The translations under genes were made by a program, and so were the position numbers. 6,590 bases of DNA from a virus: positions 1 to 6,590 of IMG/VR virus record IMGVR_UViG_3300022758_000001. One strand, 5' to 3'. Under the pieces are notes generated by a model. The model ran no database searches, was not told where the DNA came from, and saw nothing but the letters and a program-made list of their open reading frames with translations. Of this stretch, positions 1 through 6,590 are shown piece after piece; position 1 is the first letter of the stretch; each line of letters starts with the position of its first letter.

Positions 1-127
1 CTTCCTTTTCTGGTTCTTCTGGTTCTGGTGGTACACCTTACCAGTACACCCCTACGAATATGATTGGTGATGTTGCTTCTTTTGCTGGTGCTATGAAATC
101 TCTTTCGGAAGCTCGTAAGTCTGGTAC
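1..127. repeat. Terminal direct repeat, copy 1 (identical to 6464..6590). It is the wrap-around of a circular genome with a unit length of 6463 nt.
   Basis: Base-by-base comparison shows 1..127 (cttccttttctggttc...aagtctggtac) equals 6464..6590 exactly. The repeat lies inside a continuous ORF (VP2), so it is an assembly or window overlap and not a biological repeat. Confidence 0.95.
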
Positions 128-800
128 GGAAGCTGATTTGTTGGGTAGGTATGGTGATTCTGATTATTCTTCTCGTATCGCTAATACGGAAGCTGATACT
201 TATTTTAAACAGCGTCAATCTGATGTTGCTACTGCTCAGAAAGCTAATTTGCTTTTGTCTGCCGAAGCTCAGCAGGTTATGAATATGTATCTTCCGCAGG
301 AAAAACAGATTGAGTTATCTACGCTTGGCTCTCAGTATTGGAACTTGATTCGTGACGGTTCTATTAAGGAAGAGCAAGCTGAGAATTTACTTGCTACTCG
401 TTTGGAGATTGCCGCTCGTACAGCTGGCCAACATATTTCTAATAAGGTTGCTCGTTCTACGGCTGATTCTATCATCGACGCTACTAATACTGCTAAGATG
501 AATGAAGCTGCTTATAATCGAGGTTATTCTGTATTTTCTAATGATGTCGGTTATCGTACCGGTAAGATGGATCGCTGGCTTCAAGATCCCGTTAAAGCAC
601 GTTGGGATAGAGGTATAAATAACGCTGGTAAGTTTATTGAGGGTCTTTCTAATATTATCGGTTCTGTTACTAAGTTTGGTTTCTTAAGAAATGCTAACCA
701 AAGGTTAAAAGAAGATAAGCTACAATTTGACAGAGGTACTGTCGATATTTTCGACGATAACAAAGGTTATTCTTGGACTCGCCAACATCGTGGACGTTGA
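1..800 (+). CDS. VP2: VP2 minor capsid / DNA-pilot protein, C-terminal part. It continues from 6166..6590 across the circular junction.
   Basis: The frame is open from the window start (codons phased from nt 3) to TGA 798..800. It is in frame with ATG 6166 through the 127-nt overlap (6166 to 6523, which equals position 60, is 357 nt). The joined ORF is 1098 nt, giving 365 aa. T-ending codon bias matches the other genes. Confidence 0.85.
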   Translation, partial: SFSGSSGSGGTPYQYTPTNMIGDVASFAGAMKSLSEARKSGTEADLLGRYGDSDYSSRIANTEADTYFKQRQSDVATAQKANLLLSAEAQQVMNMYLPQEKQIELSTLGSQYWNLIRDGSIKEEQAENLLATRLEIAARTAGQHISNKVARSTADSIIDATNTAKMNEAAYNRGYSVFSNDVGYRTGKMDRWLQDPVKARWDRGINNAGKFIEGLSNIIGSVTKFGFLRNANQRLKEDKLQFDRGTVDIFDDNKGYSWTRQHRGR

Positions 801-1108: not shown

Positions 1109-1192
1109 CAAACTCTCCTTGTTCACGATAGGCGAAAGTCACATCACTTTATAGATATTGTGTATATCAAAATTAGTTTTTATATTTGCGGT

Positions 1193-1702
1193 ATGATTAA
1201 CAACCGTAGTAAAACATATGGCTCTTGTCTTCATCCTCGTGTGATAAAGAACAAATATACAGGTGACCCTGTGTATGTTCCTTGTGGCACGTGTGAGTTT
1301 TGCATACACAATAAGGCAGTCAAGGCTGAGTTGAAATGTAATGTTCAATTAGCTGCTTCTAAATATTGTGAGTTTATCACTCTGACCTATTCAACGGAAT
1401 ATTTGCCAGTCGGTGAGTTTTATAAAGGTGCTTTTGGTGAGGTAAGATTTCGTTGTTTACCTCGTGATTTTGTTTATTCATATAAGACCGTTCAAGGTTA
1501 TACCCGTAATATATCATTTAACGATGAATGTTTTGACTTCGATACTCAATTGTCTTGGGATTCTGCACGATTGTTGCAGAAGAAAACACATCTACACTAC
1601 ACTTCTTTTCCTGATGGTCGGCGTATTTATAACCGCCCTTATATGGAAAATCTTGTCGGTTATCTTAACTATCGTGATATACAGCTTTTTTTAAACGTTT
1701 GA
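1193..1702 (+). CDS. VP4: Replication initiation protein VP4, N-terminal (zero-frame) segment. It encodes 169 aa if translated without a frame change.
   Basis: ATG 1193 gives MINNRSKTYGSCLHPRVIKNKYTGDPVYVPCGTCEFCIHNK..., the Cys/His cluster (C-x-HP ... VPCGxCxxC) typical of microvirus VP4 N-termini. HUH motif I is FITLTY (1373..1390). The segment ends ...NYRDIQLFLNV at TGA 1700..1702. The GTG at 1160 used by the ORF track only adds 11 unconserved residues. HUH motifs II and III are absent from this frame. Confidence 0.85.
   Translation: MINNRSKTYGSCLHPRVIKNKYTGDPVYVPCGTCEFCIHNKAVKAELKCNVQLAASKYCEFITLTYSTEYLPVGEFYKGAFGEVRFRCLPRDFVYSYKTVQGYTRNISFNDECFDFDTQLSWDSARLLQKKTHLHYTSFPDGRRIYNRPYMENLVGYLNYRDIQLFLNV
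1687..1693 (+). other. Candidate -1 frameshift site: slippery heptamer T TTT TTA within a T7 run (or the site of a homopolymer length error)
   Basis: Zero-frame codons are CTT|TTT|TTA|AAC|GTT|TGA, so 1687..1693 is phased X XXY YYZ. The -1 frame is closed by TGA 1675..1677 and open from 1678. The zero frame closes at 1700..1702. The only frame-overlap window (1678..1702) therefore contains the heptamer. Confidence 0.6.
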
Positions 1703-2826
1703 ATCAAAATATAAGGAGTATTACAAATGAAAAGATTTACTACTACGTTGTTGGAGAATATGGGCCAACAACATTCCGTCCGCATTTCCATGTCTTATTA
1801 TTCCACGACTCGAAAGAGCTCAGACAAAGTATACGACAGTTTGTTCTTAAGAGTTGGCGCTTTGGTGATACAGATACGCAACCTGTCTGGTCTTCCGCTT
1901 CTTGCTACGTTGCGGGATACGTCAATAGTACTGCGTGCCTTCCCGACTTTTATAAGAATTCTAGCTATATTAAGCCGTTCGGTCGATTTTCTACGCATTT
2001 TGCGGAATCCGCTTTTAATGAGGTTTTTAAACCGGAAGAAAATGAAGAAATATTCGCTTTATTCTATGATGGTCGAATGCTCGAACTTAATGGAAAGCCT
2101 ACACTTGTGCGGCCTAAAAGGTCGCATATCAATCGATTATACCCCCGACTTAATAAGTCTAAGCATGCGACTGTGGATGATGATGTACGAGTTGCAACGG
2201 CTTTATCAAATATCCCCCACGTCCTCGCAAAATTCGGCTTTATTGACGAAGTAACTGACTTTGAGATGTCTAGGCGTATATATTACCTTATTCGTAGGTA
2301 TCTGGAAGTTGACCATACATTGAAATATGCTCCTGAACAACTTAGGTTGATTTACAACTCTTGTCGTTTGTCGTTGTATATAAATTTCTCTGACGAAAGT
2401 GGTTGTGCTGCGATCTATCGTTTGTTGCTTAATTATCGTAACTTGGTTAATAATTGGATAACTGCGCCTGTTGGTAGTGTTGCGTTTACTGGTCAATTAC
2501 GTTATGCTATTAGATCAATTCACTCTTTCTATGATTATTGTGCTAAACGTTCGTTGCGTGACCAGTTGTTGAAAGTTAAGAAATGGTCTAATGATTCTTA
2601 TGTACGTGATAATTTGTCAATATATTATTTTTATCCGTTGACTGATGTTGATATAATGAAGAAATCTTTTTCGGAGATAGTGTTTGATAGTCCTGTTTTG
2701 CGAGCTAGCTACGCAGATTATGCCGCGGATAATCGTGAGCGTATCAAACATAAAGCTCTGAATGACAAGAACGCTTTACTTATCGCTTCTGTTGACAAAA
2801 ACATTGATTACTATTATGGAAAATGA
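1693..2826 (+). CDS. VP4: Replication initiation protein VP4, C-terminal (-1 frame) segment with the HUH and catalytic-tyrosine motifs. Fused to 1193..1693 it gives a 544-aa Rep.
   Basis: Reading from 1693 gives KRLNQNIRSITNEKIYYYVVGEYGPTTFRPHFHVLLF. HUH motif II is HFH (1783..1791). Motif III is Y-x3-Y in CYVAGYVNS (Y at 1906..1908 and 1918..1920). There is no in-frame ATG for about 125 codons; the track start at 1699 is a TTG. The stop is TGA 2824..2826. Confidence 0.85.
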   Translation, partial: KRLNQNIRSITNEKIYYYVVGEYGPTTFRPHFHVLLFHDSKELRQSIRQFVLKSWRFGDTDTQPVWSSASCYVAGYVNSTACLPDFYKNSSYIKPFGRFSTHFAESAFNEVFKPEENEEIFALFYDGRMLELNGKPTLVRPKRSHINRLYPRLNKSKHATVDDDVRVATALSNIPHVLAKFGFIDEVTDFEMSRRIYYLIRRYLEVDHTLKYAPEQLRLIYNSCRLSLYINFSDESGCAAIYRLLLNYRNLVNNWITAPVGSVAFTGQLRYAIRSIHSFYDYCAKRSLRDQLLKVKKWSNDSYVRDNLSIYYFYPLTDVDIMKKSFSEIVFDSPVLRASYADYAADNRERIKHKALNDKNALLIASVDKNIDYYYGK

Positions 2827-2980
2827 AAGTTATTATTCCGCTGTGTTACACTATCTTGGACATAAGCGTGAGGTTGTTATTCGTTTGGATGCTGCGGTGA
2901 TCGATTCATTTCTTACCCGTGGTTATGTAGTTGAGCTTTTAGCTCCTATTCCTGTTGTGAAAGAACCTGCTTTAGATTGA
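2816..2980 (+). CDS. Hypothetical small protein (54 aa)
   Basis: ATG 2816 overlaps the VP4 stop by 11 nt. The product is MENESYYSAVLHYLGHKREVVIRLDAAVIDSFLTRGYVVELLAPIPVVKEPALD. T-ending codon bias matches the known genes. It ends 6 nt before the next gene. I recognise no motif in it. The upstream track start at 2762 would overlap VP4 by 65 nt and seems less likely. Confidence 0.5.
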   Translation: MENESYYSAVLHYLGHKREVVIRLDAAVIDSFLTRGYVVELLAPIPVVKEPALD

Positions 2981-2986
2981 TTTGTT

Positions 2987-3391
2987 ATGTATAAACCAAT
3001 TCACTTTTCTTTGTTGGAACTGGTCAATACCAGTACAACAACTTTGGCAAATAATATCCCAACTTGGGATTCTTTGTTGAACTTGACTTATCTCTGTAAG
3101 TATATACTTGACCCGTTGCGTGACGCTTTCGGAAAGCCTATTTATATTAATTCCGGTTATCGTTCGAATTTTGTAAACGAGGCTGTTGGTGGTGTTTCGA
3201 ACTCTCAGCATAAATTTGGCTATGCTGCTGATATTTCGGTTAGTAGTCGTGATTCTATCTCTGAACTGTTTGCTTTGATTCAGGAAATGGAATTGCCGTT
3301 CGATCAGGTTATTTATTACCGTAAAGCTGGCTTTATTCATGTTTCTTGGTCCCCGACTTATCGAAAGCAGATTATTGTTAGGGATGCTTAA
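2987..3391 (+). CDS. Zinc metallopeptidase of the LAS / Peptidase M15 (VanY / D-Ala-D-Ala carboxypeptidase-like) type, a putative peptidoglycan hydrolase (134 aa)
   Basis: The signature is ...INSGYRSNFVNEAVGGVSNSQHKFGYAADI...GFIHV. The proposed zinc ligands are H75 (cat 3209..3211), D82 (gat 3230..3232; H-x6-D spacing) and H118 (cat 3338..3340). The SGYR...N..GG..SxH..G.AxD pattern matches what I recall for Pfam Peptidase_M15_3. There is no N-terminal signal peptide or TM segment. Confidence 0.8.
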   Translation: MYKPIHFSLLELVNTSTTTLANNIPTWDSLLNLTYLCKYILDPLRDAFGKPIYINSGYRSNFVNEAVGGVSNSQHKFGYAADISVSSRDSISELFALIQEMELPFDQVIYYRKAGFIHVSWSPTYRKQIIVRDA

Positions 3392-3593
3392 AGTTGATTC
3401 TTTCCCGTCTATTCACAATAGTGTAGTAGACGGGATACCTGAAAATTACGTTTACTATTATAAAAAGTATTTGTATGAAATTGAATTTCTCCGTTTTAAA
3501 AAAAGTGATTTTGTTGATTTACGACATTTTGACGTTTCTGTTATCGAGAAAGAAAAACAATTAGTTATTAATTTTAAGTTTGAAGAAAAATGA
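3384..3593 (+). CDS. Hypothetical small protein (69 aa)
   Basis: ATG 3384 overlaps the peptidase stop (ATGCTTAA, 8-nt overlap). Its TGA 3591..3593 overlaps the VP1 start (ATGA). The product is hydrophilic and Lys/Glu/Tyr/Phe-rich (MLKVDSFPSIHNSVVDGIPENYVYYYKKYLYEIEFLRFKK...). The alternative ATG at 3339 would overlap the peptidase gene by 53 nt. Confidence 0.5.
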   Translation: MLKVDSFPSIHNSVVDGIPENYVYYYKKYLYEIEFLRFKKSDFVDLRHFDVSVIEKEKQLVINFKFEEK

Positions 3594-5470
3594 GTAGTTT
3601 ATTTTCTTATGGCGATATTAAAAATTCGCCTCGTCGTTCAGGCTTTGACCTGTCTAATAAGTGTGCTTTTACAGCCAAGATAGGCGAGCTTTTACCTACC
3701 TATTGGAAATTCTGTTTGCCTGGTGATAAATTTCATATTTCTCAGGAATGGTTTGCACGTACGCAGCCTGTTGATACTTCTGCGTTTACCCGTATACGTG
3801 AATATTACGAGTGGTTTTTTGTTCCGCTTCATCTGCTTTACCGTAACAGTAATGAGGCAATTATGTCAATGGAAAATCAGCCTAATTATGCGGCTTCTAG
3901 CTCTGCCTCTATTAGCTTTAATCGTAATTTGCCGTGGGTTGATTTGGCAACTATTTCTGCCGCTGTTAAGAATGTTACTGGTAGTTCTTTTCCTAATAAC
4001 TTCTTTGGCTTTTCTCGCTCAGAGGGTTTTAAGAAGTTGTCTTCTTATCTTGGTTATGGTGAAATAGACCCTGATAAGTATGCGCAGAATTATCGTTTGT
4101 CTGCTTTTCCTTTTTACGCTTATCAGAAAATTTATCAGGATTACTACAGACATTCTCAGTGGGAAAAGAGTAAACCTTGGACTTACAATTGTGATTTCTG
4201 GAATGGAGAGGATTCAACGCCTGTTGCTTCTACTGTGGATTTGTTTACTCAGAATCCCAATGACTCGGTTTTCGAGCTTCGTTATGCAAACTGGAATAAA
4301 GATTTGTGGATGGGTGCTTTGCCTAACAGTCAGTTTGGAGATGTTGCGGCTGTTAATTCTATGATTGACGCCTCTACTGCTAAGGTTTCTGTTGGTGGTT
4401 CTGCTCTTGTAAATGGTAATATGCCAGTTTTATATGCTGATGAAAATGGTTCTGTAGGTAGTATGATTGCTGGTATTCGTGCCGGTGGTATTGAAGGTGC
4501 TCCTGGTAATGGTCAGACTGCGACTGCTTATCCTAGTGGAAATTTGCCTGCTAATACCCCCTACTTTTTTGCACATGGTACTGAAAAAACGCCCGTTGGT
4601 CCCAATAGTTCACCTGCTGCTATTTCTGGTTCAGACCTGACCGCGTCTCTTTCTGGTCAGTTGAACGCACAATTTTCTGTTCTTCAACTTCGCGCCGCTG
4701 AAGCCTTGCAAAAGTGGAAAGAAATTGCTCAGGCGAACGGACAAAACTATGCTGCTCAGGTTAAGGCACACTTTGGCGTTTCTACTAATCCTATGCAATC
4801 ACATCGTTCGACTCGTATTTGCGGTTTTGACGGTTCTATCGATATTTCGGCTGTGGAAAATACAAATCTTACGTCTGACGAGGCTATTATCCGCGGTAAA
4901 GGTTTAGGCGGTCAACGTATTAATGACCCGTCAACCTTTACTTGTACTGAGCATGGTATAATTATGTGTATTTATCACGCTACTCCGCTTTTGGATTATG
5001 TGCCTACGGGCCCTGACTTACAGTTGATGTCTACTGTTAAGGGCGAGTCTTGGCCTGTTCCTGAGTTTGATTCTTTAGGTATGGAGTCTTTGCCGCTTGG
5101 TCCTCTTATGAATAATAAGGCCCTTGGTGGTAGTTTGAACAATTCATTTGCTGGTTATGTTCCTCGTTACATCAGTTGGAAAACTTCTACTGATGTTGTC
5201 CGTGGTGCCTTTACGGATACTTTAAAGTCTTGGGTCGCTCCTGTTGACCTTGACTATATGAAAGTCTTTTTTGCTGGTAATACGGATGATTCGACTATTG
5301 CGGAGAATGTATTACTAACTTACTCTTGGTTTAAAGTTAATCCCTCGGTACTTAATCCTATTTTTGGCTTGGCCGTTGATTCTTCTTTTAATTCGGATCA
5401 ATTGCTTTGTAACTGTCAGTTTAACGTTAAGGTAGCGCGGAATCTTTCTTACGATGGTATGCCTTATTAG
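3590..5470 (+). CDS. VP1: Major capsid protein VP1 (F-like jelly-roll capsid protein), 626 aa
   Basis: The N-terminus MSSLFSYGDIKNSPRRSGFDLSNKCAFTAKIGELLPTYWKFCLPGDKF is the characteristic microvirus capsid start. The conserved internal motif is FSVLQLRAAEALQKWKEIAQ. It is the longest ORF, with strong T3 codon bias. The stop is TAG 5468..5470. Confidence 0.93.
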   Translation: MSSLFSYGDIKNSPRRSGFDLSNKCAFTAKIGELLPTYWKFCLPGDKFHISQEWFARTQPVDTSAFTRIREYYEWFFVPLHLLYRNSNEAIMSMENQPNYAASSSASISFNRNLPWVDLATISAAVKNVTGSSFPNNFFGFSRSEGFKKLSSYLGYGEIDPDKYAQNYRLSAFPFYAYQKIYQDYYRHSQWEKSKPWTYNCDFWNGEDSTPVASTVDLFTQNPNDSVFELRYANWNKDLWMGALPNSQFGDVAAVNSMIDASTAKVSVGGSALVNGNMPVLYADENGSVGSMIAGIRAGGIEGAPGNGQTATAYPSGNLPANTPYFFAHGTEKTPVGPNSSPAAISGSDLTASLSGQLNAQFSVLQLRAAEALQKWKEIAQANGQNYAAQVKAHFGVSTNPMQSHRSTRICGFDGSIDISAVENTNLTSDEAIIRGKGLGGQRINDPSTFTCTEHGIIMCIYHATPLLDYVPTGPDLQLMSTVKGESWPVPEFDSLGMESLPLGPLMNNKALGGSLNNSFAGYVPRYISWKTSTDVVRGAFTDTLKSWVAPVDLDYMKVFFAGNTDDSTIAENVLLTYSWFKVNPSVLNPIFGLAVDSSFNSDQLLCNCQFNVKVARNLSYDGMPY

Positions 5471-5491
5471 TTAACCGCAGTCTACTCTCAA

Positions 5492-5530
5492 CTTGAGGCC
5501 AGCGAAGCGAGGCCGACTGCCGGCCTCAGG
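5492..5530 (+). other. Pair of mutually exclusive hairpins sharing one 3' arm, 22 nt downstream of VP1
   Basis: The inner hairpin pairs gaggccg (5509..5515) with cggcctc (5521..5527), a perfect 7-bp stem with loop actgc. The outer alternative pairs cttgaggcc (5492..5500) with ggcctcagg (5522..5530), 9 bp including one T-G wobble. The GAGGCC 5' arm is duplicated (5495..5500 and 5509..5514). No T tract follows, so this is not a canonical terminator. Confidence 0.6.
5502..5508 (+). other. GCGAAGC heptamer, copy 2 of 2, between the duplicated GAGGCC arms and inside a tandem AGCGA-AGCGA
   Basis: Exact gcgaagc at 5502..5508; agcgaagcga spans 5501..5510. Confidence 0.5.
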
Positions 5531-5572
5531 TTACTTCTATCTTTCCGCTTATGAACGGACTTTTGACTATGC

Positions 5573-5629
5573 TAAGGAGTGAGGCGCTGTCCCGCCGAAC
5601 TAAGAAATGGGAGCGTAGCGACTTCCTTA
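5573..5629 (+). other. Closed multi-stem structured element upstream of ORF 5675
   Basis: The closing stem pairs TAAGGA (5573..5578) with TCCTTA (5624..5629). Inside, GGCG (5583..5586) pairs with CGCC (5593..5596). Alternatively cgc-tg-tccc (5585..5593) pairs with gggagcg (5609..5615). All pairings were checked by hand. Confidence 0.4.
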
Positions 5630-5635
5630 AGATGG

Positions 5636-5662
5636 TTATTTATTTATTTATTTATTTATTTA
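5636..5662 (+). repeat. Tetranucleotide microsatellite (ATTT)6, followed by a duplicated AGTTAT that runs up to the start codon
   Basis: A residues fall at 5638, 5642, 5646, 5650, 5654, 5658 and 5662, each pair separated by TTT. AGTTAT occurs at 5662..5667 and 5671..5676. The ATG is at 5675. Confidence 0.9.
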
Positions 5663-5674
5663 GTTATTTTAGTT

Positions 5675-6169
5675 ATGAAAAAAGATGTTATTATTAGAGG
5701 TTTTGCACGTTATTCATTAAATCGTGACAATCAACTTCATAATTATACTTTTCACGGTGTGCATTCTGCCGCTGTTGCTCTTTCGGGTGTACTTCGTGAA
5801 CAATCTCCTGTTGAGGATTTTCTCTTTGAGGATAATTTTGACGGTTCGAGAACTTTCGTTAGTGACTATTCTGTTCTTTCTGGCCAAGCTGCTATTGACC
5901 AGATGAATCCGACTCAATTACGCCGTTATCTCAATGGTTTACGTCCCTCTTCTTCTCCTTATACTCACCATTATAATGATGATTTCCTTTTGGAATATTG
6001 TAAGGATAGGAATATTCAGTCTTATACTGAAATGCAGGCTTGGTTAGAACATCTTATTTCAGAGGGTCAGTCTCTTGAAAATGATGTTGCCGCTTATCAG
6101 GCTGCTAAGTTGGCTGAACAACAACAGGCTACCGAATCTCAACAAAATGCCCAGGATTCTACTGAATGA
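5675..6169 (+). CDS. Hypothetical protein, 164 aa. Its position suggests a scaffolding (VP3-like) role, but that assignment is weak.
   Basis: ATG 5675 gives MKKDVIIRGFARYSLNRDNQLHNYTF.... The C-terminal tail is acidic and Gln-rich (AKLAEQQQATESQQNAQDSTE). Its stop overlaps the VP2 start (ATGA, 6166..6169). T3 codon bias is present. The track's GTG 5579 start would read through the structured GC-rich region and the microsatellite (giving LFIYLFIYL), which is implausible. Confidence 0.7.
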   Translation: MKKDVIIRGFARYSLNRDNQLHNYTFHGVHSAAVALSGVLREQSPVEDFLFEDNFDGSRTFVSDYSVLSGQAAIDQMNPTQLRRYLNGLRPSSSPYTHHYNDDFLLEYCKDRNIQSYTEMQAWLEHLISEGQSLENDVAAYQAAKLAEQQQATESQQNAQDSTE

Positions 6170-6590
6170 TTGGTGCTGCTATTGGTGCTGCTGGCTCTTT
6201 AGCCAGCGGTGTCGTTAACGCTATTGGTAATAATCGGCAAGGTTCTAAGAATCGTAAACATCAACTTGAAATGCAGCGGATTCAGAACGAATGGGCAAGT
6301 TCTGAATCTCAGAAATCACGTGATTTTGCTAAATCAATGTTTGACGCTACGAACGAATGGAACTCCGCTAAAAATCAGCGTGCACGCTTAGAGGAAGCTG
6401 GTTTGAATCCTTATTTGATGATGAACGGCGGTTCGGCTGGTTCTGCTCAGTCTACATCTGCAACTTCCTTTTCTGGTTCTTCTGGTTCTGGTGGTACACC
6501 TTACCAGTACACCCCTACGAATATGATTGGTGATGTTGCTTCTTTTGCTGGTGCTATGAAATCTCTTTCGGAAGCTCGTAAGTCTGGTAC
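6166..6590 (+). CDS. VP2: VP2 minor capsid / pilot protein, N-terminal part. It runs off the window end and continues at position 1 via the circular junction.
   Basis: My hand translation from ATG 6166 gives MIGAAIGAAGSLASGVVNAIGNNRQGSKNRKHQLEMQRIQNEWASSESQKSRDFAKSMFDATNEWNSAKNQRARLEEAGLNPYLMMNGGSAGSAQSTSATSFSGSSGSGGTPYQYTPTNMIGD..., with no stop before 6590. The Gly/Ala-rich hydrophobic N-terminus and the AGLNPYL motif are typical of microvirus VP2. The ORF track omits it because it has no stop within the window. Confidence 0.85.
   Translation, partial: MIGAAIGAAGSLASGVVNAIGNNRQGSKNRKHQLEMQRIQNEWASSESQKSRDFAKSMFDATNEWNSAKNQRARLEEAGLNPYLMMNGGSAGSAQSTSATSFSGSSGSGGTPYQYTPTNMIGDVASFAGAMKSLSEARKSG
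6464..6590. repeat. Terminal direct repeat, copy 2 (identical to 1..127)
   Basis: Exact 127/127 identity with the window start. Confidence 0.95.

What the first reader, a model, noticed from the sequence alone, without database searches (positions are those of the whole stretch)
2987..3391. A LAS/M15-type zinc peptidase gene in a microvirus, with no holin or export signal in sight
The 134-aa product carries SGYR...N..VGG..SQH-x6-D...IHV. This is the H/D/H zinc triad and surrounding pattern of VanY/Peptidase M15-like D-Ala-D-Ala or cell-wall peptidases, which tailed phages use as endolysins. Canonical microviruses lyse without a muralytic enzyme: phiX174 protein E blocks MraY. For most gokusho- and alpa-like microviruses no lysis gene is known. 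From memory, metagenomic surveys have reported M15-like peptidases in a minority of Microviridae, so this is rare but probably not unprecedented. The enzyme has no signal peptide or TM helix, and none of the conventional-frame small ORFs (54 aa, 69 aa) is hydrophobic. How it would reach the periplasm is therefore unexplained. It could act in lysis, or as a virion-associated entry enzyme.
Basis: partly seen in the sequence, partly recalled or inferred. Interest (0 to 1): 0.7.

Follow-up and report, generated by a model that had tools for sequence, protein, structure and literature searches.

The report
Known microvirus endolysin, overlooked partner gene
The gene is a real cell-wall-cutting zinc peptidase already reported in gut microviruses, but beside it lies an unannotated 29-codon gene for a small hydrophobic peptide that may explain how the enzyme reaches the cell wall.

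Summary
ORF 2987..3391 (+) encodes a 134-aa Peptidase_M15_3 / LAS-fold zinc peptidase (Pfam E=2.8e-18; AF2 pLDDT 94.8; best PDB fold match 1LBU). H75, D82 and H118 are invariant, dN/dS is 0.21, and there is no signal peptide or TM segment.

It is not new. The window is a complete circular 6463-nt microvirus about 82% identical to cultured Bacteroides phage phiHBP1, whose paper lists an "M15A family metallopeptidase". Roux et al. 2012 proposed this gene as a horizontally acquired endolysin in Alpavirinae and Gokushovirinae. At least 150 GenBank microvirus records carry a homologue.

Tailed-phage homologues sit in holin-endolysin(-spanin) cassettes, so the export puzzle is real.

"No holin in sight" needs revising. 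An overprinted 26-29-codon ORF (3475..3564, MKLNFSVLKKVILLIYDILTFLLSRKKNN) lies 84 nt downstream, hidden in another frame of the annotated 69-aa ORF. It is intact in 30 of 31 clade genomes with dN/dS 0.19, against 2.08 for the annotated frame there. It belongs to the same clade-specific module inserted between Rep and VP1. It is a candidate membrane-active lysis partner, which is inferred and not shown.

Verdict: already known gene; modest interest, raised by a testable lead.

The parts
2987..3391 (+). M15_3 / LAS-fold zinc peptidase gene (134 aa), the putative endolysin
   Evidence: ORF. Pfam PF08291 E=2.8e-18. PHROG 894 endolysin E=1.3e-30. AF2 pLDDT 94.8. Foldseek top PDB hit 1lbu, then Hedgehog N-domains, MepA, LdcB, VanY. 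BFVD viral Peptidase M15/M15A, TM up to 0.85. dN/dS 0.21.
3209..3211 (+). Codon for H75, first predicted Zn ligand (SQH)
   Evidence: Invariant in 54 homologues. Aligns with the His of SRHMYGHAAD in 1lbu.
3230..3232 (+). Codon for D82, second predicted Zn ligand (H-x6-D)
   Evidence: Invariant in 54 homologues. Aligns with the Asp of the same 1lbu motif.
3338..3340 (+). Codon for H118, third predicted Zn ligand (IHVS)
   Evidence: Invariant in 54 homologues. Lies in the region matched to the C-terminal end of the Pfam M15_3 profile.
3475..3564 (+). p29: unannotated overprinted ORF, MKLNFSVLKKVILLIYDILTFLLSRKKNN. Layout is a basic N-segment, a 13-residue hydrophobic core with invariant D17 and T20, and a basic tail. 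Candidate membrane-active lysis partner.
   Evidence: The ATG is present in all 30 genomes where the ORF is intact, out of 31 clade genomes examined; the ORF is 26-31 codons long. dN/dS 0.19 with dS 0.66. Minimum changes by codon position 31/14/37, and 21/3/20 in the core; 0 stops in >=82 events, P=0.017. Cross-subclade BLOSUM62 per residue is 2.06, against 0.98 in the 69-aa frame, over DNA that is 52% identical. No database homologue.
3384..3593 (+). s69: the gene-callers' 69-aa ORF. Its start overlaps the peptidase stop (ATGCTTAA). Its coding status is doubtful in the 3' half.
   Evidence: Open in relatives as 67-71 aa. 230 homologue clusters, all on microvirus-sized contigs and unannotated. 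dN/dS is 0.40 with low dS (0.25) in the N-half and 2.08 with dS 0.09 in the C-half.
3403..3435 (+). Conserved hairpin (10-bp stem, CCCGTCTA...TAGACGGG core) just after the peptidase stop
   Evidence: DNA fold -10.3 kcal/mol, z=-4.06, 0 of 200 shuffles as stable. Stem arms are almost unchanged across the clade genomes, with single-base changes in three; the motif retrieved further clade genomes from the collections. Function unknown.
2816..2980 (+). s54: small upstream ORF of the same clade-specific module (54 aa, not hydrophobic, fast-evolving)
   Evidence: A 48-54-aa ORF is called at this position in relatives. dN/dS 0.46. No family hit. Absent from M15-less alpaviruses.

Best explanation
The ORF encodes a functional zinc-dependent peptidoglycan peptidase of the LAS fold (Pfam Peptidase_M15_3, 'M15A'-like). 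An ancestor of this phiHBP1-like, Bacteroides-infecting microvirus clade acquired it horizontally, as part of a roughly 770-nt module (s54, M15, hairpin, s69/p29) inserted between Rep and the capsid gene. It acts as the phage's endolysin. It accumulates folded in the cytoplasm, because it has no export signal, and cleaves peptide stems or cross-links of the sacculus once the inner membrane is breached. This differs from the phiX174 E-type block of MraY. The most likely source of the breach is the overprinted 26-29-residue cationic hydrophobic peptide p29, encoded 84 nt downstream in the same orientation. That would make a minimal endolysin plus membrane-peptide lysis cassette. Shown here: enzyme family, fold, intact triad, purifying selection, absence of an export signal, lysis-cassette context of tailed-phage homologues, and p29 being a selected coding frame restricted to the M15 module. 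Inferred: the role in lysis, the bond cleaved, and any membrane activity of p29.
For: Family, fold and triad. Purifying selection on M15: dN/dS 0.21. No signal peptide, SAR domain or TM segment. Homologues at 43-46% identity are the endolysins of holin-endolysin(-spanin) cassettes in Stenotrophomonas phage Salva and Bacteroides phage BKR1. The endolysin role was already proposed for microviral M15_3 by Roux 2012. A microvirus PG hydrolase (Ebor Gp7) has been verified biochemically, with only trace amounts in virions. The cultured relative phiHBP1 forms plaques on B. fragilis and carries the orthologue. The module is clade-specific: M15, s54, s69 and p29 are all absent from alpaviruses with 30-42% VP1 identity, where Rep abuts VP1. 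p29 evidence. Another M15-carrying microvirus (bajarodmic virus 66) has a free-standing 40-aa TM ORF near its peptidase, and Ebor has a 45-aa membrane protein Gp1.
Against: No activity or lysis data exist for this protein or for phiHBP1's orthologue. The hydrophobic core of p29 is only 13 residues and contains a conserved Asp, so it is too short for a standard TM helix. Its hydrophobic moment is not above shuffled controls. It has no homology to any holin. p29 lies immediately upstream of the capsid gene, which is the position of the small basic DNA-packaging protein J in phiX174, so it could have a non-lytic role. The same M15A domain also occurs fused to Gp5-like tail proteins in tailed phages, where it serves entry. 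Outer-membrane disruption (a spanin equivalent) is not accounted for.
Confidence: 0.6

Rival explanations
1. The peptidase is a virion-associated entry enzyme. A few copies are packaged or attached to the capsid and locally open the peptidoglycan during DNA delivery, so no export from the producing cell is needed.
For: The M15A domain is found fused to Gp5-like tail or baseplate proteins of tailed phages. Ebor Gp7 was detected in virions, though only in trace amounts. This reading would remove the export puzzle.
Against: The protein is a free-standing 134-aa enzyme with no capsid-binding or structural domain. Its closest relatives are stand-alone endolysins in lysis cassettes. M15-less relatives with 30-42% VP1 identity manage without it. 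The Ebor authors found only traces. From general knowledge, a T=1 capsid leaves little room and microviruses deliver DNA through the pilot-protein conduit.
Confidence: 0.1
2. The enzyme acts from the cytoplasm as an enzymatic single-gene lysis protein. It destroys wall precursors (D-Ala-D-Ala, UDP-MurNAc-pentapeptide or lipid II on the inner leaflet), as VanX/VanY-type M15 enzymes do. That starves wall synthesis, so growing cells lyse without any export.
For: No export signal. The best solved structural relative is a D-Ala-D-Ala-cleaving enzyme. The logic matches known microvirus and levivirus lysis, which blocks precursor supply (general knowledge; discussed in Roux 2012).
Against: Homologues at 43-46% identity are holin-dependent endolysins by their context. 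There is no specific similarity to VanX. NCBIfam gives only a weak match to the periplasmic L,D-endopeptidase MepK, 22 bits against a cutoff of 185. This reading would leave the co-inherited, selected p29 unexplained.
Confidence: 0.07
3. Lysis is caused by a small membrane peptide alone, either p29 acting as an Sgl-type protein or another unidentified factor. The peptidase is then accessory: it speeds up sacculus clearance or serves another purpose such as wall remodelling.
For: Lysis peptides of about 35-37 residues suffice in some ssRNA phages (general knowledge). p29 is as strongly constrained as the core genes, with dN/dS 0.19. M15-less alpaviruses and some Occultatumvirinae subgroups lyse without a peptidase.
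Against: M15 is itself under purifying selection with an invariant active site. It was retained in all 31 clade genomes examined. M15 and p29 are always found together in this sample.
Confidence: 0.12
4. p29 has nothing to do with lysis. It is a J-like DNA-packaging or capsid-binding peptide, or an upstream ORF that tunes VP1 translation. The way the peptidase reaches the wall then stays unknown, for example leakage through membrane damage caused by the Gly-rich N-terminal segment of pilot protein VP2.
For: p29 ends 25 nt before the VP1 start and is small and cationic, like phiX174 J, which also sits just upstream of the capsid gene (general knowledge). Its core is too short for a canonical TM helix and it is not specially amphipathic. 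The VP2 N-terminus MIGAAIGAAGSLASGVVNAIG matches pilot-protein families and is moderately hydrophobic.
Against: About half of p29's residues are strongly hydrophobic (L, I, V, F, M), unlike J proteins. Selection preserves second-position T, meaning hydrophobic residues, in the core. p29 is absent from M15-less relatives, which still need packaging and VP1 expression.
Confidence: 0.2

Closest known systems
M15_3 peptidases of human-gut Alpavirinae and Gokushovirinae (Roux et al. 2012, PMC3394797)
   Same: Same Pfam family (PF08291), same kind of virus and habitat. They were interpreted as a horizontally acquired possible endolysin, with Bacteroidetes affiliation for the alpaviral copies.
   Different: That study had no cultured host and did not address export. 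It noted only an adjacent 'unknown' ORF in 5 of 11 genomes. The overprinted p29 is not described.
Bacteroides phage phiHBP1 'M15A family metallopeptidase' (PV598014.1, CDS 84..488; PMC13064476)
   Same: Orthologue at 66% amino-acid identity in a genome about 82% identical, with the same gene order. The host is B. fragilis. p29 is present there too.
   Different: It is annotated 'hypothetical protein' in GenBank and no function has been tested. The M15-VP1 interval spans the record origin and carries no annotation.
M15A-type endolysins of tailed phages (Stenotrophomonas phage Salva gp29 'endolysin endopeptidase'; Bacteroides phages B124-14 and BKR1; crAss-like cr114_1)
   Same: 42-46% identity over 93-95% of the length, about the same size (about 127-140 aa), single domain, no signal peptide.
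   Different: They sit next to annotated holins, and in Salva next to i- and o-spanins as well. The microvirus has none of these.
Streptomyces albus G zinc D-Ala-D-Ala peptidase (PDB 1LBU), the archetypal LAS / M15A enzyme
   Same: Best sequence match (E=2.2e-8) and best fold match (Foldseek E=2.6e-7, TM 0.63 normalised by the query). The SxHxxGxAxD motif aligns.
   Different: 1LBU is a secreted 213-aa protein with an extra N-terminal domain. Identity is only 25% and substrate specificity cannot be transferred.
Microvirus Ebor Gp7 plus Gp1 (Bardy et al. 2025, PMC11980548)
   Same: A ssDNA microvirus with a stand-alone PG hydrolase of about 146 aa, verified by zymogram, plus a predicted 45-aa membrane protein.
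   Different: Different subfamily and host (Rhodobacter). The paper does not describe Gp7 as M15, and I did not compare the sequences.
phiX174 protein E (single-gene lysis)
   Same: A microvirus lysis function encoded by an overprinted small ORF with a hydrophobic segment. p29 shares that genetic architecture.
   Different: E is a non-enzymatic MraY inhibitor embedded in gene D, and the phage has no muralytic enzyme (general knowledge). Here an enzyme is present and p29 shows no similarity to E.
Cystovirus phi6 P5 lytic enzyme plus small membrane protein P10 (from memory, not checked here)
   Same: A small-genome, non-tailed phage of a Gram-negative host that pairs a wall hydrolase with a tiny membrane protein for lysis.
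   Different: It is an enveloped dsRNA virus, P5 is also virion-associated, and there is no sequence relationship.

Membership tests
LAS / MEROPS M15 zinc peptidases (Pfam Peptidase_M15_3, PF08291) | Significant match to the family profile above the curated threshold | tested here: met
   66.5 bits against a gathering score of 23.2, E=2.8e-18, covering residues 39-120. PHROG 894 E=1.3e-30.
LAS / MEROPS M15 zinc peptidases (Pfam Peptidase_M15_3, PF08291) | Zn-binding triad His-x6-Asp ... His, plus the conserved Arg of the SxxR motif | tested here: met
   H75, D82, H118 and R59 are invariant in 54 homologues. H75 and D82 align with the H and D of 1lbu's SRHMYGHAAD.
LAS / MEROPS M15 zinc peptidases (Pfam Peptidase_M15_3, PF08291) | LAS (Hedgehog / DD-peptidase) fold | tested here: met
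   AF2 pLDDT 94.8. Foldseek PDB hits in order: 1lbu, Hedgehog N-domains, MepA, LdcB, VanY. BFVD Peptidase M15/M15A, TM up to 0.85.
LAS / MEROPS M15 zinc peptidases (Pfam Peptidase_M15_3, PF08291) | Metal-dependent hydrolysis of a peptidoglycan peptide bond | not testable with these tools
   Needs a zymogram or muropeptide analysis with and without EDTA.
Canonical (holin-dependent) phage endolysin | Soluble muralytic enzyme without a secretion signal | tested here: met
   Maximum KD19 0.79; no N-terminal hydrophobic segment; an in-frame stop lies two codons upstream of the ATG.
Canonical (holin-dependent) phage endolysin | Close homologues located in lysis cassettes | tested here: met
   Salva: endolysin, two holins, i- and o-spanin. 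BKR1: holin next to endolysin.
Canonical (holin-dependent) phage endolysin | A holin (membrane protein with at least one TM domain) encoded in the same genome, usually adjacent | tested here: inconclusive
   There is no canonical holin. The only selected hydrophobic ORF is p29 (3475..3564), whose core is 13 residues long and carries a conserved Asp.
Canonical (holin-dependent) phage endolysin | Required for host lysis late in infection | not testable with these tools
   Needs genetics in phiHBP1 and B. fragilis.
Secreted or SAR endolysins | N-terminal signal peptide or signal-arrest-release domain | tested here: not met
   The N-terminal 30 residues have a mean KD of 0.09 and no hydrophobic stretch. 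The N-terminus is conserved as MYKP.. across the clade.
Single-gene lysis (phiX174 E type) | A non-enzymatic small membrane protein is the sole lysis factor, and no muralytic enzyme is present | tested here: not met
   A muralytic-type enzyme is present and under selection. Hydrophobic alternate-frame ORFs in VP1, VP2 and the VP3-like gene fail the conservation and selection tests.
Virion-associated peptidoglycan hydrolase | The enzyme domain is part of, or bound to, a structural protein and is present in virions | tested here: inconclusive
   It is a stand-alone 134-aa protein with no structural domain, which argues against this. Virion content is not testable here. The domain does occur in Gp5-like tail fusions elsewhere.

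The most novel reading that the evidence does not exclude
p29, a never-annotated overprinted 26-29-codon gene hidden in the 3' half of the annotated 69-aa ORF, encodes the missing membrane-permeabilising partner of the M15 endolysin. This Bacteroides microvirus clade would then carry a horizontally assembled, two-component 'mini holin-endolysin' cassette. That would be a third lysis strategy for Microviridae, besides E-type Sgl and 'unknown', and it could be tested directly in the cultured phage phiHBP1.
Probability: 0.3. Interest if true: 0.7.

Novelty: already known. Interest (0 to 1): 0.4.

Why it matters
How microviruses other than the phiX174 group lyse their hosts is still largely unknown, even though these phages are among the most abundant in the human gut. 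The peptidase itself adds nothing new. The combination found here is what makes the question testable:

- an intact, selected endolysin-type enzyme with no export route;
- a co-inherited, strongly constrained mini-ORF that gene callers miss;
- a close cultured relative (phiHBP1 on B. fragilis).

The case also shows that overprinted genes in microviruses are systematically missed. The frame that annotation pipelines report here (s69) is the one that shows no protein-level constraint in its 3' half.

Tried and rejected
1. Long hydrophobic alternate-frame ORFs as E-like or holin candidates: VP1 3723..4067 and 4080..4364; VP2 151..282 and 502..618; VP3-like 5724..5906 and 5934..6047. Most (4080, 3852, 502, 5934, 5724) have starts or stops that are not conserved (for example ATG to ACG in 5 of 13 for 5934). 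151..282 keeps its ATG and length but fails the selection test. Synonymous variation in the host genes is normal, and syn/nonsyn in the candidate frames is 0.14-0.47, as expected for a T-rich strand.

2. The hydrophobic N-terminal extension of the 196-aa ORF (start 5579). It is not conserved; relatives start at the downstream ATG and give 160-177 aa.

3. p29 as an amphipathic helix. Its hydrophobic moment (0.26) is no higher than in shuffled sequences, so that description was dropped.

4. Small IMG/VR contigs with M15 hits (L004-L085) as additional microviruses. They show no VP1 similarity, and their largest ORFs look like tailed-phage proteins.

5. Homology searches for p29 (PHROGs; the 5.8-billion-protein word search) found nothing.

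6. s69, s54 and alt175 against Pfam and PHROGs gave nothing significant. s69 homologues are confined to this clade.

7. Literature searches for a microvirus holin or an export mechanism for the peptidase found none.

8. Identifying the donor lineage. Bacteroides and Stenotrophomonas phage homologues are about equally distant (43-46%), so the donor is unresolved.
Full report
OBSERVATION. ORF 2987..3391 (+) is present as described: ATG start, 134 aa. It carries SGYR (R59), VGG, SQH (H75), D82 and IHV (H118). The family assignment is far beyond chance. Pfam Peptidase_M15_3 scores 66.5 bits against a gathering score of 23.2, E=2.8e-18. PHROG 894 'endolysin' gives E=1.3e-30. The only solved-structure sequence hit is 1LBU, the Streptomyces albus zinc D-Ala-D-Ala peptidase (E=2.2e-8), and the SQHKFGYAAD motif aligns with its SRHMYGHAAD. 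In an alignment of 54 homologues at 42-97% identity, H75, D82, H118, R59, S56, Q107 and S120 are invariant. An AlphaFold2 model built on that alignment has mean pLDDT 94.8. Foldseek against the PDB returns, in order, 1LBU (E=2.6e-7), the Hedgehog N-terminal domains, MepA, LdcB and VanY, which is the LAS set. Against viral models it returns Peptidase M15/M15A with TM up to 0.85, including peptidases of other microviruses. The protein has no signal peptide, SAR domain or TM segment: the highest 19-residue hydropathy mean is 0.79, and an in-frame stop lies two codons before the ATG. Within the clade its dN/dS is 0.21 at dS 0.95, so it is a functional gene under purifying selection.

WHAT THE WINDOW IS. 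The window has a 127-nt terminal direct repeat, so it is a circular assembly of a 6463-nt genome. It is about 82% identical over 97% of its length to Bacteroides phage phiHBP1 (PV598014.1, host B. fragilis). Gene order, conserved in 12 related genomes, is: Rep (539 aa), small ORF (48-54 aa), M15 (134 aa), small ORF (69-71 aa), VP1 (about 626 aa), a protein of about 166 aa, pilot protein VP2 (365 aa; window 6166..6590 continuing at 128..800), then about 400 nt of non-coding DNA.

ALREADY KNOWN. Roux et al. 2012 reported M15_3 peptidase genes in 6 Alpavirinae and 5 Gokushovirinae. They argued for repeated horizontal acquisition and proposed an endolysin role (PMC3394797). The phiHBP1 paper lists 'an M15A family metallopeptidase' among its eight proteins (PMC13064476). 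Later work notes the same gene in Amoyvirinae and Occultatumvirinae. In the GenBank phage collection, 406 records hold a homologue. At least 151 of them are microviruses by name, and most are annotated 'peptidase'. Bardy et al. 2025 showed biochemically that a microvirus PG hydrolase (Ebor Gp7) degrades peptidoglycan and is present only in trace amounts in virions (PMC11980548).

THE EXPORT PUZZLE IS REAL. Tailed-phage homologues at 42-46% identity are single-domain, signal-less enzymes of about the same size. They sit in classical cassettes: endolysin, holin/antiholin, holin, i-spanin and o-spanin in Stenotrophomonas phage Salva; holin next to endolysin in Bacteroides phage BKR1. The enzyme type therefore normally depends on a holin. 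No annotated protein of this microvirus is a membrane protein, apart from the Gly/Ala-rich N-terminus of the pilot protein.

SEARCH FOR A HIDDEN PARTNER. The + strand is T-rich, so alternate frames are full of hydrophobic ORFs, and hydrophobicity alone means nothing. I aligned 13 and then 17 clade genomes (66-90% nt identity) and asked which alternate-frame ORFs stay open and show protein-like substitution patterns.

- Synonymous variation is flat across VP1, VP2, the 166-aa gene and M15. That rejects the long hydrophobic ORFs inside them, most of which also have unconserved starts or stops.
- Only two alternate-frame ORFs stand out genome-wide.
- One is a 175-codon ORF inside Rep (1727..2254), treated below as a side observation.
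- The other is a 29-codon ORF at 3475..3564, 84 nt downstream of the peptidase stop and 25 nt upstream of VP1. It is overprinted on the 3' half of the 69-aa ORF that gene callers report.

EVIDENCE THAT p29 IS A REAL GENE.
- It is intact in 30 of 31 M15-clade genomes, each with the ATG, at 26-31 codons. The exception, L143, differs from its near-twin L142 by a 1-nt deletion in a T-run, in an assembly with about 5x coverage.
- NG86 dN/dS is 0.19 with dS 0.66. That matches VP1 (0.18) and Rep outside the overlap (0.14). The annotated 69-aa frame over the same DNA gives 2.08 with dS 0.09.
- Minimum substitutions by p29 codon position 1/2/3 are 31/14/37 (chi-square 10.4). In the hydrophobic core they are 21/3/20, and second-position T is invariant in 9 of 13 codons. 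The most conserved sites are thus the wobble positions of the annotated frame.
- No stop arose in at least 82 events; about 4 were expected, P=0.017.
- The two subclades have M15 only 50-53% identical, and this 78-nt span only 52% identical. Between them, the p29-frame translation keeps BLOSUM62 at 2.06 per residue, against 0.98 for the 69-aa frame and -0.35 for the third frame. The pattern M[KR]..[FI].[VI][LF][KR]K[VI][IL].[LF][IL].D[IL][LV]T[FL][LF]..R[KR] is preserved.
- The frame has no hit in PHROGs or in the 5.8-billion-protein collection, so it has never been called as a gene.

WHAT p29 LOOKS LIKE. It has a short basic N-segment, a 13-residue aliphatic core with invariant Asp17 and Thr20, and a strongly basic tail. 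Net charge over the first 26 residues is +3 to +6. The core is too short for a textbook TM helix, and the peptide is not unusually amphipathic. Membrane activity is therefore an inference from composition, size and position, not a demonstrated property.

MODULE CONTEXT. Alpavirus-like genomes whose VP1 is 30-42% identical lack M15, s54, s69 and p29 altogether, and in them Rep abuts VP1 directly. The stretch from about 2816 to 3590 (s54, M15, hairpin, s69/p29) is therefore a clade-specific insertion that is inherited as a unit. Other PG-hydrolase-bearing microviruses carry a small membrane ORF. Bajarodmic virus 66, whose M15 peptidase is 43% identical, has a free-standing annotated 40-aa ORF, MVYILVLVLVVIKLIIILCFRKKKS..., and Ebor has a 45-aa membrane protein, Gp1.

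MECHANISM. The best-supported reading (about 0.6) is that M15 is the endolysin of this clade. It folds in the cytoplasm and cuts peptide stems or cross-links once the inner membrane is breached. p29 is the leading candidate for causing the breach (about 0.3 for that specific step). The bond cleaved cannot be inferred: the nearest structure is a DD-peptidase, and NCBIfam gives only a weak, sub-threshold match to the L,D-endopeptidase MepK.

Rivals:
- A virion-associated entry enzyme. The domain does occur in Gp5-like tail fusions, but here it is free-standing and M15-less relatives do without it.
- A cytoplasmic precursor-destroying 'enzymatic Sgl'. This would be elegant, but nothing supports it beyond the missing signal.
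- p29 as the sole lysis factor, with M15 accessory.
- p29 as a J-like packaging peptide or an upstream ORF, which would leave export unexplained.
No spanin equivalent was found, so passage of the outer membrane is unaddressed.

VERDICT. Novelty of the finding as given: already known. Interest is 0.4. A specialist would not be surprised by the gene. The overprinted p29, together with a cultured host-phage pair, does make the long-standing question of microvirus lysis outside the phiX174 group directly testable.

SIDE OBSERVATIONS.
- Rep in the window is split (1160..1702 and 1699..2826). A T-run has 7 T (1686-1692) where 15 of 17 genomes have 8 nt, and L002 shares the deletion. The site reads T TTT TTA.
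- A 175-codon ORF inside Rep (1727..2254) has its ATG in 13 of 13 genomes. Rep dS falls from 0.72 to 0.27 across the overlap. ORFs of 163-167 codons are open at the same place in alpaviruses whose Rep is only 32-39% identical.
- A conserved hairpin lies at 3403-3435, z=-4.06.
- The clade is mosaic. L002 has M15 99% identical but VP1 75%; L093 is 87% identical overall but its M15 is 69%.
- L144 joins M15 and a truncated VP1 to bacterial ABC-transporter genes, so it is either a chimera or a provirus remnant.

Noticed in passing
window 1-127 and 6464-6590: An exact 127-nt terminal direct repeat. The window is a circular assembly with an overlap, and the unit genome is 6463 nt. The pilot-protein gene VP2 (365 aa) therefore runs from 6166 across the junction to 800.
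   Followed up: yes
window 1686-1693 (Rep, 1160..1702 / 1699..2826): Rep is split into two frames by a T-run of 7 where 15 of 17 related genomes have 8 nt (T8 or TTTTTCTT). IMG/VR genome L002 shares the deletion. The site reads T TTT TTA, a classic -1 slippery heptamer, and a -1 shift would restore the 539-aa Rep. It could be a homopolymer assembly error, a defective genome, or real frameshifting or slippage.
   Followed up: partly
window 1727-2254 (+), inside Rep in another frame: A 175-codon overprinted ORF with its ATG conserved in 13 of 13 genomes. Rep synonymous divergence drops from dS 0.72 to 0.27 exactly over the overlap and recovers after 2254. ORFs of 163-167 codons are open at the same place in alpaviruses whose Rep is only 32-39% identical (L105, L121). 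It is probably a real, unannotated overlapping gene, comparable to phiX174 B/K inside A. No family hits.
   Followed up: partly
window 3403-3435: A hairpin with a 10-bp stem (core CCCGTCTA / TAGACGGG), almost unchanged in the clade genomes (single-base changes in three), immediately after the peptidase stop. DNA dG is -10.3 kcal/mol and z=-4.06. All three frames around it have low synonymous divergence, which points to a nucleic-acid-level function such as a terminator or complementary-strand origin.
   Followed up: partly
window 3384-3593 (69-aa ORF): The ORF that gene callers report here has dN/dS 2.08 in its 3' half and dS of only 0.25 in its 5' half. Its start always overlaps the peptidase stop (ATGCTTAA or ATGA), even across a 10-nt indel. 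Whether it is translated at all is unclear. 230 homologue clusters exist, all on microvirus-sized contigs.
   Followed up: partly
window 5469-5643: About 175 nt between VP1 and the next gene have no BLAST match in phiHBP1, and this interval varies across the clade. Upstream of the conserved ATG at 5675, the 196-aa ORF has a hydrophobic extension (WLFIYLFIYLVILV) that is not conserved in relatives.
   Followed up: partly
L002, L003, L093 compared with the window: The clade is mosaic. L002 has M15 99% identical but VP1 75% and the genome 88%. L093 is 87% identical overall but its M15 is only 69%. This suggests frequent recombination that shuffles the lysis module and the capsid gene.
   Followed up: no
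L144 (13,356-nt metagenome contig OGXR01002100.1): It holds the M15, hairpin and p29 region and a truncated VP1, followed by bacterial-looking genes (a lipoprotein and LivG/F-like ABC-transporter ATPases). There is no internal repeat. It is either a chimeric assembly or an integrated, degraded provirus.
   Followed up: partly
L096 (bajarodmic virus 66, PQ006596.1) 3245-3367: A free-standing annotated 40-aa ORF, MVYILVLVLVVIKLIIILCFRKKKSISNNKRIGIVDNKRF, with a strong N-terminal TM helix and a basic tail. It lies about 400 nt upstream of that microvirus's M15 peptidase gene and looks holin- or Sgl-like.
   Followed up: no
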